The notes under the pieces are model-generated. The model made no database searches, had not been told where the DNA came from, and saw nothing but the letters and a program-made list of their open reading frames with translations. From Carcharhinus amblyrhynchos (Eukaryota), in assembly GCA_965287045.1 (NCBI GenBank), contig OZ336877.1, positions 47,864,001 to 47,928,000 of the forward strand: a stretch of DNA of 64,000 nt, given 5' to 3'. Both the position numbers and the translations under genes were made by a program. Each line of letters opens with the position of its first letter. Within the stretch, counting starts at the first letter, position 1. Below are positions 1 to 62,847 of the stretch, one piece after another.

Positions 1-2747
1 AGGATAGGCAGGAGGGAAAAGGGGGGGGCGTAGCTCTGCTGATTAAGGATAGCATCACGGTGGTAGCAAGGGATGATATTGGAGCCAAGGAGCAGAGGGT
101 GGAATCGTTGTGGGTGGAGATTAGGAACAGCAAAGGGAGGAAGACGCTGGTGGGTGTCGTCTATAGGCCTCCAAATAATGATCTGGAGGTGGGGCGGGCT
201 GTTAACGCGCAAATAAGTGCGGCGTGCAGGAATGGGACGGCCATAGTTATGGGGGATTTCAATCTGCATATTGATTGGTCGACCCATGTTGGACGTGGGG
301 GGCTCGAGGAAGAGTTCTTGGAATGCTGCCGGGATAGTTTCCTCGAACAGTGTGTGTTGGAGCCGACGAGGGAGCGAGCTATCTTGGATCTGGTGCTATG
401 TAATGAAGCGGGTAGAATTAGGGACCTTGTGGTGAAGGATCCTCTTGGGGAGAGTGATCATTGTATGGTGGAGTTTCTGGTGCAGATGGAGGAGGAGAAA
501 GTGGGTTCCTGGACACGCGTCCTTTGTTTGAATAGAGGGGAGTACGGTAGGATGAGAGAAGAATTGGCGAATGTGGACTGGGGGAGCGCGTTGGAGGGTG
601 GGTCTGTTGAGGAGCAGTGGAGGATCTTTAAGGAGATCTTTCTTGGTGCTCAGCGGAAATTTATTCCGATGGTCAAAAAGGATAGTAGGAGGAGAGGTAA
701 TAAGCCGTGGATAACGAAGGAGGTGAAGGAAAGTGTTAAACTAAAAGCGGAGGAATTTAGAGTAGCTAAGAGTAGTGGGCGAGAAGAGGATTGGGAGAGG
801 TTTAAATGTCAACAAAGATTGACAAAGAAGTTGATAAAGAAGGGTAGGAGAAACTATGAAGCTGGGCTAGCGCTTAATATAAAAAAGGATAGCAAGAGTT
901 TTTATAAATATATAAAAAGGAAGAGGCTGGCTAGGGTGAATGTTGGTCCTTTAGAGGATGAGAAAGGGGACCTAGTGGTAGGGGATGGGGATATGGCTAA
1001 GGTATTGAATAACTTTTTTGTTTCTGTCTTCACGGAGGAGGACGTGAATAATTTGCCAGGTGTTAGCGATGGAAAGGTGGTAGGACTGGAGGGTCTTAAT
1101 GACATTACTGTTACTAGAAAGGTGGTACTCGACAGCCTGGAGGGGCTGATTGTGGACAAGTCCCCAGGACCGGATGGAATGCATCCGAGGGTTCTGAAAG
1201 AAATGGCGGCGGTGATAGTGGATGCCTTGGTGGTTATTTTCCAAACGTCGCTGGATTCCGGGGAAGTGCCGGATGATTGGAAAATGGCTAATGTTACGCC
1301 GTTGTTTAAGAAGGGTGCCAGGCAAAAGGCAGGGAATTATAGGCCGGTTAGTTTAACGTCTGTGGTAGGTAAAATGTTAGAATCTGTCATTAAGGAGGAA
1401 ATTGCGAGGCATCTTGAAGGGAATTGCTTGATAGAGCAGACGCAGCACGGTTTCATTAAAGGGAAGTCGTGTCTGACAAATTTACTGGAGTTCTACGAGG
1501 ATGTGTCTAGGGCGGTGGATAGAGGAGAGCCGGTGGATGTGGTCTTTCTAGATTTTCAGAAGGCGTTTGACAAAGTGCCTCACAAGAGGTTATTGCAGAA
1601 GGTCGAGGGACATGGAGTTGGGGGTAGGGTGTTAGCGTGGATAGAGGATTAGTTGTCAAATAGGAGGCAGAGAGTGGGGGTCAACGGGTGCTATTCGGAT
1701 TGGCGGATGGTGACTAGTGGAGTGCCCCAGGGGTCGGTGCTGGGGCCTCAGCTTTTTACCATTTATATAGATGATCTGGAGGAGGGAACCGAGTGTAGGG
1801 TGTCGAAATTTGCTGATGACACCAAGATTGGGGGAACGGCACATTGTGCGGAGGGTGTGGAGAGTCTGCAGAAGGATCTAGATAGGCTGGGCGAATGGGC
1901 CAGGAAATGGCAAATGGAATTTAATGTTGGCAAGTGTGAGGTGGTCCACTTTGGTAGGAAGAATGGTAGGAAGGACTATTACTTACGGGGCGAAAAACTG
2001 CAGCAGGCGACGGTGCAGAGGGACCTCGGGGTCCTTGTGCATGAGTCGCAAAAACCCAGCTTGCAGGTGCAGCAGGTGGTCAGGAAGGCGAATGGGATGC
2101 TGGCCTTCATAGCGAAGGGGATTGAATATAAAAGTAGGGAGGTCTTGCTGCAGCTGTATAGGGCATTGGTGAGGCCGCAGCTGGAGTACTGTGTGCAGTT
2201 TTGGGCGCTGCACCTGCGCAAAGATATTTTGGCCTTGGAGGGAGTGCAGAGGAGGTTTACTAGGCTGATACCGGAGTTGAGGGGGTTGAGCTATGAGGAG
2301 AGGCTGAATAAACTGGGCTTGTACTCGTTAGAGTTTAGAAGAATGAGGGGAGATCTCATTGAGACGTATAAGATGATGAATGGGATGGATAGGATAGAGG
2401 TGGAAAGACTCTTCCCGCTCAAAAAAGACAGTAGGACGAGGGGGCACAGCCTCAAGATAAAAGGGGGGCGGTTTAGAACGGAGTTGAGGAGGAACTTCTT
2501 CACTCAAAGGGTGGTGAATCTCTGGAATTCTCTGCCCGTTGAAGTGGTGGAGGCTGCCTCGCTAAATATTTTTAAGACGCGGGTTAATGGGTTTTTGATA
2601 GGAGAGGGGATTAAGGGTTATGGGGAGAGGGCGGGAAAGTGGAACTGAGCAGCGACAGATCAGCCATGATCTTATTGAATGGCGGGGCAGGCTCGAAGGG
2701 CTGGATGGCCTACTCCTGCTCTTATTTCTTATGTTCTTATGTTCTTA
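1..2747 (+). mobile_element. CR1-clade LINE ('family A'), near-intact ORF2 (APE endonuclease + RT) with 3' UTR and (TTCTTATG)n tail; 5' end lies outside the window
   Basis: ORFs 60-1652 and 1653-2648 are one frame broken only by TAG at 1650-1652 (TGG in the sister copy near 61747). Motifs: VYRPP, GDFN, SDH, KSPGPDG, NYRPVSLTS, DFQKAFD, GVPQGSVLGP, FADD, TRGH. Microsatellite tail at about 2725-2747. Confidence 0.95.
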
Positions 2748-8249: not shown

Positions 8250-8423
8250 TGCTTTTGGCTGCCCCTATTCAGAGCTCAACCTGAAAAAAGAGTCAACAAT
8301 TCAAGACAGATTGGGAGGAGAGAAACAGATGACCCTAGTGCCGATTCCTCTAGTTTCACGAACTAAACGTCTTGAAAGTAATCACTCAAGTGGGAAGCCA
8401 GAGGAATGTGTTAATGAAACAAG
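8250..8423 (+). CDS. L3MBTL4: L3MBTL4-like exon, phase 2-2: (S)AFGCPYSELNLKKESTIQDRLGGEKQMTLVPIPLVSRTKRLESNHSSGKPEECVNET(R)
   Basis: Acceptor ttctcttgtgaaattag, donor AAG|gtaagt, 174 bp open. Matches the recalled human L3MBTL4 segment SAFGCPYSDMNLKKEATLHDRL (end of a CCHHC finger). Confidence 0.9.
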
Positions 8424-9237: not shown

Positions 9238-10120
9238 TAGAACATAGAACACTGCAGCACAAACAGGCCCTTTGGCCCACGAGTTGCGCCGAACCCATCA
9301 ACACCTACCAATCTATAAGAACATAAGAACATAAGAAATAGGAGCAGGAGTAGGCCATCCAGCCCTTCGAGCCTGCCCCGCCATTCAATAAGATCATGGC
9401 TGATCTGTCGCTGCTCAGTTCCACTTTCCCGCCCTCTCCCCATAACCCTTAATCCCCTCTCCTATCAAAAACCCATCAACCCGCGTCTTAAAAATATTTA
9501 GCGAGGCAGCCTCCACCACTTCAACGGGCAGAGAATTCCAGAGATTCACCACCCTTTGAGTGAAGAAGTTCCTCCTCAACTCCGTTCTAAACCGCCCCCC
9601 TTTTATCTTGAGGCTGTGCCCCCTAGTCCTATTGTCTTTTTTGAGTGGGAAGAGTCTTTCCACCTCTATCCTATCCATCCCATTCATCATCTTATACGTC
9701 TCAATGAGATCTCCTCTCATTCTTCTAAACTCTAACGAGTACAAGCCCAGTTTATTCAGCCTCTCCTCATAGCTCAACCCCCTCAACTCCGGTATCAGCC
9801 TAGTAAACCTCCTCTGCACTCCCTCCAAGGCCAAAATATCTTTGCGCAGGTGCGGCGCCCAAAAATGCACACAGTACTCCAGTTGCGGCCTCACCAATGC
9901 CCTATACAGCTGCAGCAAGACCTCCCTACATAGACCTATCTATAACCCCCAATCCCATTAAACCCCATATACACATCCAGAAGTCTTTTAAAAGACCCCA
10001 GCGAGTTCGCCTCCATCACCACTGATGGCAGCCGATTCCATTCACTCACCAGCCTCTGAGTGAAAAACTTACCCCTAACATCACTTCTGTACTTTCCTCC
10101 CCGCACCTTTAATCTGTGTC
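9238..10120 (-). mobile_element. CR1 'family B' 3' end (9238-9315 plus 9930-10120), split by a family A copy
   Basis: The joined halves are colinear with the family B tail at 63040-63310. Encodes GKFFTQR..EWNRLP. Confidence 0.85.
9316..9929 (-). mobile_element. CR1 family A, 5'-truncated young copy
   Basis: ORF 9415-9918 is almost identical to the C-terminus of ORF 1653-2648. Same (TTCTTATG)n tail. Confidence 0.95.
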
Positions 10121-12875: not shown

Positions 12876-13073
12876 AAAATGTCCCACTCCTGGCTGCGAT
12901 GGATCAGGTCACGTAACTGGGAAGTACACCGCACACCACCGAGTCTCAGGTTGCCCACTAGCTGAACAAAAGCAGATCAAAATCAAAATGGAGGCACAGG
13001 ATGAAGTGGGGTCACCAGAAAATAAATCAGTCTTTTCATTTGTTCAGCGCAAAAGGACAAAACAACAGGGCAG
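12876..13073 (+). CDS. L3MBTL4: L3MBTL4-like exon, phase 2-2, CCHHC (C2HC) zinc finger: (R)[65 protein letters not shown](R)
   Basis: Acceptor tatccactgttacag, donor CAG|gtgaga, 198 bp open. [15 protein letters not shown]....GCP is the MYT1/L3MBTL1 CCHHC motif. Phases match both neighbouring exons. Confidence 0.92.
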
Positions 13074-19656: not shown

Positions 19657-19730
19657 GCTAGCTCGGCCAGCAAAATACTTGAAAATTAAAGAGGAAGCAA
19701 ATGATATTGACCTGCACAGTCTACTCAAAG
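19657..19730 (+). CDS. L3MBTL4: L3MBTL4-like exon, phase 2-1: (R)LARPAKYLKIKEEANDIDLHSLLK
   Basis: Acceptor ttctgttttctgttag with upstream branch-like gactaa, donor AAG|gtaata. Only one frame is open and it fits the upstream phase. Matches recalled human RLVQQAKCLKIKGKEDIDLDNLFR. Confidence 0.9.
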
Positions 19731-60801: not shown

Positions 60802-62847
60802 GCTGTGGATAACGAAGGAGGTAAAGGAGAGTATTAAATTAAAAGCGGATGCGTTCAGAGTAGCTAAGAGTAGTGGGCAAGAAGAGGATTGGGAGAGGTT
60901 TAAATGTCAACAAAGAATGACGAAGAAGTTGATAAAGAAGGGTAGGATAAACTATGAAGCTGGGCTAGCGCTAAATATAAAAAAGGATAGTAAGAGTTTT
61001 TATAAATATATAAAAAGGAAGAGGCTGACTAGGGTGAACGTTGGACCCTTAGCGGATGAGAGGGGGGCTTAGTGGTAGGGGATGGGGAAATGGCTGAGGC
61101 CTTGAATAACTTTTTTGTTTCGGTCTTCATGGAGGAGGACGTGAATAGTTTGCCGGATGTTAGCGATGGAAAGGTGGTAGGACTGGAGGGCCTGAATGAC
61201 ATTATTGTTACTAGAGAGGCAGTGCTTGACAGACTGGAGGGACTGATTGTGGACAAGTCCCCAGGACCGGATGGAATGCATCCAAGGGTTCTGAAAGAAA
61301 TGGCAGAGGTGATAGTGGATGCCTTGATGATTGTTTTCCAAACCTCGCTGGATTCCGGGTAAGTGCCGGAAGATTGGAAAACGGCTAATGTTACGCCGTT
61401 GTTTAAGAAGGGTGGCAGGCAAAAGGGGGGGAATTATAGGCCAGTTAGTTTAACGTCTGTTGTAGGTAAAATGTTAGAATCCGTGATCAAGGAGAAAATA
61501 GCGAGGCACCTTGAGGAGAATTGTTTGATAGAGCAGACGCAGCACGGTTTCATTAAGGGGAAGTCGTGTCTGACGAATTTATTGGAGTTCTATGAGGATG
61601 TGTCTAGGGTGGTGGATAGAGGAGAGCCGGTAGATGTGGTGTTTCTTGATTTTCAGAAGGTGTTTGATAAGGTGCCGCACAAGAGACTATTACAGAAGGT
61701 TAGGGGGCATGGAGTTGGGGGTAGGGTGTTAGCGTGGATAGGGGATTGGCTGTCAAATCGGAGGCAGAGAGTGGGGGTCAATGGGTGCTATTTGGATTGG
61801 CGGTTGGTGACTAGTGGAGTGCCCCAGGGGTCGGTGCTGGGGCCTCAGCTATTTACCATTTATATAGATGATCTGGAGGAGGGAACCGAGTGTATGGTGT
61901 CGAAATTTGCTGATGACACCAAGATTGGTGGAACGGCAAATTGTGCGGAGGGTGTGGAAAGTGTGCAGAAGGATCTAGACAGGCTGGGCGAATGGGCCAG
62001 GGACTGGCAAATGGAATTTAATGTTGGCGAGTGTGAAGTTGTCCACTTTGGTAGGAATAATGGTAGGACGGACTATTACTTACATGGCGAAAAACTGCAG
62101 CATGCAACGGTGCAGAGGGACCTCGGGGTCCTTGTGCATGAGTCACAAAAACCCAGCCTGCAGGTGCAGCAGGTGGTCAGGAAGGCAAATGGGATGCTGG
62201 CCTTTATAGCGAGGGGGATTGAATATAAAAGTAAGGAGGTCTTGCTGCAAATGTACAGGGCACTGGTGAGGCCGCAGCTGGAGTACTGTGTGCAGTTTTG
62301 GTCGCCGCACTTACGCAAAGATATTTTGGCCTTGGAGGGAGTGCAGAGGAGGTTTACTAGGCTGATACCGGAGTTGAGGGGGTTGAATTATGAGGAGAGG
62401 CTGAATAAACTAGGCTTGTACTCGTTAGAGTTTAGAAGAATGAGGGGAGATCTCATTGAGACATAGAAGATGATGAATGGGATGGATAGGATAGAGGTGG
62501 AGAGGCTCTTCCCACTCAGAAAGGACAGTAGGACTAGAGGGCACAGCCTCAAGGTAAGGGGGAGGGCAGTTTAGAATGGAGTTGAGGAGGAACTTCTTCA
62601 CTCAAAGGGTGGTGAATCTCTGAAATTCTCTGCCCGTTGAAGTGGTGGAGGCTGCCTCGCTAAATATTTTTAAGACGCGGGTTGATAGGTTTTTGATAGG
62701 CAAGAGGATTAAGGGTTATGGGGAGAGGGCGGGAAAGTGGAACTGAGCCACGACAGATCAGCCATGATCTTATTGAATGGCGGGGCAGGCTCGAAGGGCT
62801 AGATGGCCTACTCCTGCTCCCATTTCTTATGTTCTTATGTTCTTATT
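60802..62847 (+). mobile_element. CR1 family A, 2-kb 5'-truncated copy with stops
   Basis: ORFs 61072-61362 and 61363-62466 are highly similar to 60-2648; TAA at 61360, TAG at 62464; family A tail. Confidence 0.95.

What the first reader, a model, noticed from the sequence alone, without database searches (positions are those of the whole stretch)
12876..13073. Extra L3MBTL1-type CCHHC zinc-finger exon inside an L3MBTL4 orthologue
Seen: an open 198-bp phase 2-2 exon encoding [30 protein letters not shown], between two exons that resemble L3MBTL4. Recalled: human L3MBTL4 runs directly from the first flanking segment (..EKVNSQP) into the second (RLVQQAK..), while human L3MBTL1 has [30 protein letters not shown] at this position. 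Inference: the ancestral L3MBTL1/4 gene had two tandem CCHHC fingers, this lineage kept both, and mammalian L3MBTL4 lost a symmetric exon. It could also be a cassette exon that switches finger number.
Basis: partly seen in the sequence, partly recalled or inferred. Interest (0 to 1): 0.7.

Follow-up and report, generated by a model that had tools for sequence, protein, structure and literature searches.

The report
Shark L3MBTL4 keeps ancestral second finger
This is a real, spliced-in exon of a shark chromatin-reader gene (most likely L3MBTL4) encoding the second of two zinc fingers also found in invertebrate relatives, which the other vertebrate copies examined have reduced to one finger, so it is likely an ancestral leftover and not a new switch.

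Summary
Observation confirmed. 12876-13073 is a 198-nt AG/GT exon, phase 2-2, encoding an intact C2HC finger. Contigs of runs guessed to be RNA join it to both neighbours, and no skip junction was seen. Of 86 cartilaginous-fish records, 77 carry both fingers, and none with the upstream exon lacks this one. A tree built without the fingers, plus synteny, favours L3MBTL4. (1) Two fingers are far older than L3MBTL1/4: 72 of 72 invertebrate or unnamed hits have both. (2) Loss is not mammal-specific: ray-finned L3MBTL4 keeps the exon in frame but has lost its zinc ligands. (3) Annotated skipping hits the upstream exon (3 stingray isoforms), giving the L3MBTL1 layout. The genome's four paralogues split the fingers: this gene both, L3MBTL1 finger 2, the other two finger 1. 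Modest interest.

The parts
8250..8423 (+). Exon A, 174 nt, phase 2-2. Supplies the last Cys of finger 1 and the linker. The first half of finger 1 is on an exon upstream of the window, ending at G000:C8:47846685 in phase 2.
   Evidence: skipped in 3 annotated stingray isoforms
12876..13073 (+). Exon B (the finding), 198 nt, phase 2-2: finger 2, an acidic linker and a basic tail
12880..12954 (+). C2HC (CCHHC) finger 2 core, C-x4-C-x4-H-x7-H-x5-C, all five residues intact
13048..13073 (+). Basic tail of exon B, continuing into exon C. A nuclear-localisation or DNA-contact role is inferred, not tested.
   Evidence: sequence; basic tail also seen in the fingerless ray-finned exons
19657..19730 (+). 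Exon C, 74 nt, phase 2-1. The next exons (pre-SAM block and SAM) lie beyond the window at G000:C8:47.958 and 47.988 Mb.

Best explanation
Exon 12876-13073 is a spliced-in, likely constitutive exon of a shark L3MBTL gene, most likely L3MBTL4, and it encodes the second of two C2HC zinc fingers that the gene likely inherited from a two-finger invertebrate-type ancestor. Shown: the exon, its two junctions, its conservation, and the finger content of the four paralogues in this genome. C8 has fingers 1 and 2; C16 (L3MBTL1) has finger 2 only; C7 (L3MBTL3) and C24 have finger 1 only. Inferred: after the vertebrate genome duplications each copy shed one finger by one of two routes. One route is loss of a frame-preserving phase 2-2 exon (exon A in L3MBTL1; exon B in a mormyrid duplicate and in the deer L3MBTL4 model). 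The other is substitution of the zinc ligands with the exon kept (ray-finned L3MBTL4, probably also C24). Inferred function: finger 2 binds zinc and most likely adds a weak nucleic-acid contact beside the methyl-lysine-reading MBT repeats and the SAM domain. It is not predicted to form a MYT1-type sequence-specific finger pair.
For: Junctions A>B and B>C in X4, B>C in X1/X2. 77 of 86 cartilaginous-fish records have both fingers, 3 skip exon A, 6 are fragments, and 0 have exon A without B. Tree on 437 columns of MBT, pre-SAM and SAM, finger blocks left out: C8 groups with the cartilaginous-fish L3MBTL4 set (99.9/100) and then with bony-vertebrate L3MBTL4 (78.5/89). C16 sits with marmoset and amberjack L3MBTL1 (99/100), and L1+L4 are sisters (94/87). 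With 22 taxa, 'C8 is the orthologue of bony L3MBTL1' is rejected, p-AU 0.002. C8 is followed by a TMEM200-family gene (48.05 Mb) and a protein-4.1 gene (48.43 Mb), as are C7 and C24; C16 has a 4.1 gene nearby, no TMEM200, and shares its contig with the MYT1-like locus. 72 of 72 invertebrate or unnamed hits among the 108 new proteins have two fingers. 64 of 74 ray-finned L3MBTL4 records keep an exon-B equivalent. 0 of 10 aligned keep all five finger residues, yet 6 of 6 tested align to exon B above shuffles (0, 0, 0, 1, 0 and 5 of 1000 shuffles reach the score).
Against: The placement 'C8 clade sister to all L3MBTL1' is not rejected (p-AU 0.127), and the L3MBTL4 node has only moderate support in the full tree. 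The neighbour names TMEM200C, EPB41L3 and ST18, and the human gene order, are recalled; the Atlas search did not tell the TMEM200 paralogues apart. Five UniRef chimaera models lack exons B and C together; they look like gene-model artefacts, but this was not tested. Contigs drop rare isoforms, so low-level skipping is not excluded. One search listed 120 of 412 hits and its ranking favours two-finger proteins; among 136 new representatives, 60 match finger 1 only, 9 finger 2 only, 8 both and 59 neither. The mammalian layout rests on one low-quality deer model and on papers that describe one finger. No L3MBTL4 of coelacanth, lungfish, amphibian, reptile or bird was obtained. The function of the finger was not tested.
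Confidence: 0.85

Rival explanations
1. Exon B is a regulated cassette exon that switches shark L3MBTL4 between one and two fingers.
For: It is symmetric (198 nt, phase 2-2), so skipping keeps the frame. A direct A>C layout exists in a mormyrid duplicate, a UniRef coho salmon model and the deer model.
Against: 0 of the 77 cartilaginous-fish records with exon A lack exon B. All three contigs that reach exon C come from exon B. The skipping that is annotated removes exon A (P0173, P0177, P0178).
Confidence: 0.07
2. The gene is L3MBTL1 or an L3MBTL1 duplicate, so the finger is simply in its expected place.
For: NCBI names the closest catshark and chimaera proteins 'L3MBTL1' (P0121, P0202). Finger 2 is 27-28 of 30 identical to L3MBTL1 fingers. 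A sister position to the whole L3MBTL1 clade is not rejected.
Against: The genome has a separate gene on C16 that groups with marmoset L3MBTL1 at 99/100 and has its layout (degenerate first half of finger 1 joined to finger 2). Direct orthology is rejected (p-AU 0.002). 11 of the 12 hits are named L3MBTL4. Exons A and C align with ray-finned L3MBTL4.
Confidence: 0.05
3. The exon was gained in the shark lineage, by gene conversion from L3MBTL1 or by shuffling from a MYT1-family gene.
For: High protein identity to the C16 finger and to MYT1 fingers.
Against: 19 of 30 finger codons differ synonymously from C16, so there was no recent conversion. The same finger sits at the same place in amphioxus, acorn worm, echinoderms, molluscs and chelicerates. 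Ray-finned orthologues keep a decayed copy.
Confidence: 0.02

Closest known systems
Mammalian L3MBTL4 (PMC2933619, passages read; deer model P0417)
   Same: Three MBT repeats, finger 1, exons A and C, SAM; same tree clade.
   Different: Described with one C2HC finger. The deer model has no exon B. The shark gene has two intact fingers.
L3MBTL1 (marmoset P0314, bamboo shark P0310, G000 C16 gene)
   Same: Exon B is homologous; in C16 it has the same length and phase; finger 27-28 of 30 identical.
   Different: Lacks exon A, so finger 1 is a broken half joined directly to finger 2. Separate clade.
Invertebrate L(3)mbt-like proteins (amphioxus P0221, acorn worm P0208, sea star P0241, abalone P0203)
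   Same: MBT x3, finger 1 (x8 spacing), finger 2 (x7 spacing), SAM; finger starts 61-89 residues apart, 81 in the chimaera orthologue.
   Different: Outgroup to the four vertebrate paralogues in the tree. Many other representatives match finger 1 only, and Drosophila L(3)mbt is described with one finger (PMC9535798, passages read).
MYT1 / MYT1L / ST18 CCHHC finger pairs (PDB 2mf8, 2cs8, 1pxe)
   Same: Same Pfam family and the same five Cys/His residues.
   Different: Paired MYT1L fingers start 44-53 residues apart. After the second His they read RS, in six of seven RSLSG or RSASG; finger 2 here reads HRVSG and finger 1 HSAFG.

Membership tests
zf-C2HC / CCHHC finger (PF01530) | C-x4-C-x4-H-x7-H-x5-C with a Pfam score over the cut-off | tested here: met
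   (57.5 bits, cut-off 32.3)
zf-C2HC / CCHHC finger (PF01530) | Binds zinc and folds | not testable with these tools
   Inferred from intact ligands; PMC10742566 (passages read) names the second His as metal ligand and the first as fold-stabilising
L3MBTL1/3/4 subfamily | Three MBT repeats, C2HC finger region, C-terminal SAM | tested here: met
   Collinear exons on G000:C8:47.66-47.99 Mb
L3MBTL4 orthologue | Groups with bony-vertebrate L3MBTL4 in a tree that leaves out the fingers | tested here: met
   78.5/89 with 38 taxa; aLRT 99.4 with 22 taxa in a fast search; one alternative not rejected, p-AU 0.127
L3MBTL4 orthologue | Gene order L3MBTL4 - TMEM200C - EPB41L3 (recalled) | tested here: inconclusive
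   TMEM200-family and protein-4.1 genes follow the gene; which paralogues they are was not established
L3MBTL1 orthologue | Groups with mammalian and teleost L3MBTL1 | tested here: not met
   C16 does and C8 does not; p-AU 0.002
L3MBTL1 orthologue | No exon A; finger 1 incomplete | tested here: not met
   Exon A present and spliced
Cassette (alternatively skipped) exon | Frame-preserving | tested here: met
   198 nt, phase 2-2
Cassette (alternatively skipped) exon | Skip junction in transcripts or annotated isoforms | tested here: not met
   None in 3 contigs or in 77 records; rare skipping cannot be seen in contigs
MYT1-type DNA-binding finger pair | Two fingers about 44-53 residues apart, with RS after the second His | tested here: not met
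   Spacing 61-89 and variable; different residues
MYT1-type DNA-binding finger pair | Binds AAAGTT-type DNA (PMC9307810, passages read) | not testable with these tools
   needs a binding assay

The most novel reading that the evidence does not exclude
The ancestral L(3)mbt protein was a two-finger reader that contacted DNA directly, and cartilaginous-fish L3MBTL4 is the last vertebrate copy to keep both fingers. Two adjacent symmetric exons act as a finger selector: dropping exon A leaves finger 2 (fixed in L3MBTL1, an isoform in stingrays), dropping exon B leaves finger 1 (mammalian L3MBTL4). The 'single zinc finger' of human L3MBTL1 and that of L3MBTL3/L3MBTL4 would then be different ancestral fingers with different partners, a clean case of domain-level subfunctionalisation among genome-duplication paralogues.
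Probability: 0.25. Interest if true: 0.55.

Novelty: new variant of a known kind. Interest (0 to 1): 0.3.

Why it matters
Papers describe human L3MBTL1, L3MBTL3 and L3MBTL4 as each having 'a zinc finger' (PMC9535798). The comparison here indicates that L3MBTL1 keeps ancestral finger 2 and the others finger 1, so results on one finger should not be carried over to the other. The shark gene is a natural two-finger form for testing what the fingers do, and the ray-finned exon shows a finger caught in decay. It also exposes naming errors in public annotation. It is ordinary domain loss after duplication, not a new mechanism.

Tried and rejected
The search with exon B alone returned MYT1/MYT1L-type proteins in the 120 rows listed; these served only to type the MYT1-family loci. 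No holder on record as RNA was listed, and RNA status of X1-X4 is a guess. The first read-laying was crowded by repeats and its joint table was cut, so junctions were read from contig pieces and loose ends. X3 had no cover on exon C, which is no evidence. The Atlas search did not name the TMEM200 paralogue and gave no hit for the bowfin finger region. The PDB holds no finger region of an L3MBTL protein among the hits. No relic of exon A was found in the 2.3-kb C16 intron (best + strand E 0.80; one - strand hit at E 0.008), and none of exon B in the 30-kb C7 interval (best E 1.1). The first finger counts used patterns that were too strict; the count was redone. No fold prediction was run, since it would not test zinc or DNA binding. 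Literature: no paper held both 'L3MBTL1' and 'CCHHC'; searches listed nothing on finger history or a fourth paralogue (titles and abstract starts seen only). The library lacks most subscription papers, and three primary or review papers were not held. The scan's earlier notes had nothing near this place or on L3MBTL.

Full report
Observation. Window 12876-13073 is a 198-nt exon between an AG acceptor and a GT donor, phase 2 at both ends, open throughout. It encodes a complete C2HC finger (PF01530, E 1.3e-15), a linker and a basic tail. Its neighbours are exon A (8250-8423, 174 nt, also phase 2-2) and exon C (19657-19730). The window is G000:C8:47864001-47928000 of a 2.9-Gb genome. It is a shark by protein similarity: exon A is 98% identical to a catshark protein.

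The gene. MBT exons lie upstream (C8:47.77-47.84 Mb) and the SAM exons downstream (47.96-47.99 Mb). Finger 1 is split: its first half ends in phase 2 at C8:47846685, outside the window, and exon A supplies its last Cys. The protein therefore has MBT x3, finger 1, finger 2 and SAM.

Splicing. No run on record as RNA holds the exon; four runs guessed to be RNA were laid. One 2290-nt contig of X4 covers exons A, B and C in adjacent record positions. In X1 and X2 (one study) the letters before exon C are the end of exon B. No A>C junction appeared, but contigs drop rare forms. Of 86 cartilaginous-fish records (up to 15 listed per cluster, many of them isoforms of one gene), 77 have both fingers, 3 skip exon A, 6 are fragments, and none has exon A without B. 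Five further UniRef chimaera models lack exons B and C together and have odd linkers; I take them for model artefacts, untested. The three exon-A skips (stingrays; P0173, P0177, P0178) join the first half of finger 1 directly to finger 2, which is the layout of L3MBTL1.

Orthology. The genome holds four L3MBTL1/3/4-type genes, on C7, C8, C16 and C24. In a maximum-likelihood tree of 38 sequences on 437 columns, with the finger blocks left out, C8 joins the cartilaginous-fish set (99.9/100) and then bony-vertebrate L3MBTL4 (78.5/89). C16 joins marmoset and amberjack L3MBTL1 (99/100), C7 joins L3MBTL3 (98.9/99), and C24 forms a fourth clade with gecko, rattlesnake and dragonet proteins (99.3/100). 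L1+L4 and L3+fourth are sister pairs. With 22 of the 38 rows, orthology of C8 to bony L3MBTL1 is rejected (p-AU 0.002); a sister position to the whole L3MBTL1 clade is not (0.127). C8, C7 and C24 are each followed by a TMEM200-family and a protein-4.1 gene; C16 has a 4.1 gene 0.4 Mb away and no TMEM200. The MYT1-family loci on C16 and C7 match MYT1 and MYT1L; the C8 locus matches neither closely. That this fits human 18p/8q, 6q, 1p and 20q is recalled, not tested.

Finger content of the paralogues. C8 has fingers 1 and 2. C16 has a first half of finger 1 with the second Cys replaced by Trp, no exon A, and an intact finger 2 on a 198-nt exon of the same phase; bamboo shark and marmoset L3MBTL1 show the same. 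C7 has finger 1 and no trace of exon B. C24 has finger 1 and a fingerless phase 2-2 exon at the position of exon B; its homology to exon B rests on position and phase only.

Age of the two-finger state. Among the 108 new proteins (120 of 412 hits listed; the ranking favours two fingers), 73 have two fingers: one chimaera protein, 59 named invertebrate proteins (amphioxus, hemichordates, echinoderms, molluscs, an annelid, a brachiopod, a nemertean, chelicerates) and 13 unnamed ones. The other 35 have one: 5 chimaera models, 3 cyclostome, 2 L3MBTL3 and 25 ray-finned L3MBTL4. Twenty-nine residues of the window's finger are identical in acorn worm P0208. The 'L3MBTL1-type' finger is therefore the ancestral finger 2. 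Many unnamed representatives keep only finger 1 (60 of 136), so loss is common.

Loss in bony vertebrates. Of 74 ray-finned L3MBTL4 records, 64 keep an in-frame exon-B equivalent, 8 (one mormyrid duplicate, two species) run from A to C, and 2 diverge after exon A (counted from the printed rows). In 10 aligned sequences the five finger positions read SYRHY, SYHHY, SHRQY, CYRHY, CCRHS, CYRPC, AYRNY, ACRCQ, AYRSH and VYR-N; none is intact. Sturgeons keep 16-17 of 30 residues, and 6 of 6 tested align above shuffles. The only mammalian L3MBTL4 finger region obtained, a low-quality deer model, runs from A to C. Human L3MBTL4 is described with one C2HC finger (PMC2933619 and PMC9535798, passages read). 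No lobe-finned fish, amphibian, reptile or bird L3MBTL4 was retrieved, so one early loss and two independent losses both remain open.

How it likely works. Shown: the exon is spliced in, and its finger is under purifying selection (19 synonymous against 2 non-synonymous codon differences to C16). Inferred: it binds zinc through three Cys and the second His, as summarised for MYT1L fingers (PMC10742566, passages read). MYT1L recognises GAAAGTT with a finger pair (PMC9307810, passages read), but those fingers start 44-53 residues apart and have RS after the second His, whereas L3MBTL fingers are 61-89 apart and differ there. I therefore favour a weak auxiliary nucleic-acid contact that adds to MBT reading of methyl-lysine (about 50%) over sequence-specific pair binding (about 25%) or a protein-binding role (about 25%). 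The basic tail may be why ray-finned fishes kept the exon after the finger decayed; this is a guess.

Verdict. A real and conserved exon, already present in public shark annotations. I did not find the reciprocal partition of the two fingers among four paralogues in searches, which cover open papers only; no supplements were read. New variant of a known kind, interest 0.3.

Noticed in passing
G000:C24:37.256-37.306 Mb (L020-L024): A fourth L3MBTL1/3/4-type paralogue, next to TMEM200-family and protein-4.1 genes. It groups with gecko, rattlesnake and dragonet proteins that NCBI calls L3MBTL3, hypothetical or L3MBTL4.
   Followed up: partly
window 8250-8423 (exon A); proteins P0173, P0177, P0178, P0443: Three stingray isoforms skip exon A, which breaks finger 1 and reproduces the fixed L3MBTL1 layout. 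An unnamed spider-like representative shows the same join.
   Followed up: partly
proteins P0121, P0202, P0273: Public names disagree with the tree: catshark and chimaera orthologues are named L3MBTL1, and sturgeon orthologues L3MBTL3.
   Followed up: yes
proteins P0304/P0506-P0512 versus P0297/P0517-P0521: In two mormyrid species one L3MBTL4 duplicate has no exon B in 8 of 8 records while the other keeps the decayed exon: a parallel to the mammalian layout.
   Followed up: partly
proteins P0276, P0278, P0291: The lamprey and hagfish proteins retrieved have finger 1 only; two of them have a fingerless stretch where exon B would lie. Other cyclostome paralogues were not sought.
   Followed up: no
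window 3-2645 (+), 61060-62463 (+), 9418-9939 (-) and others: Long reverse-transcriptase-like frames (549 and 331 codons with one stop between; 367 codons) in the introns, probably CR1-type LINEs (label recalled). The copy near 9.3-10.1 kb draws very high contig depth.
   Followed up: no
G000:C7:69262570 (L038): A further TMEM200-family frame of 230 codons that resembles the C8 copy and has no L3MBTL gene beside it.
   Followed up: no
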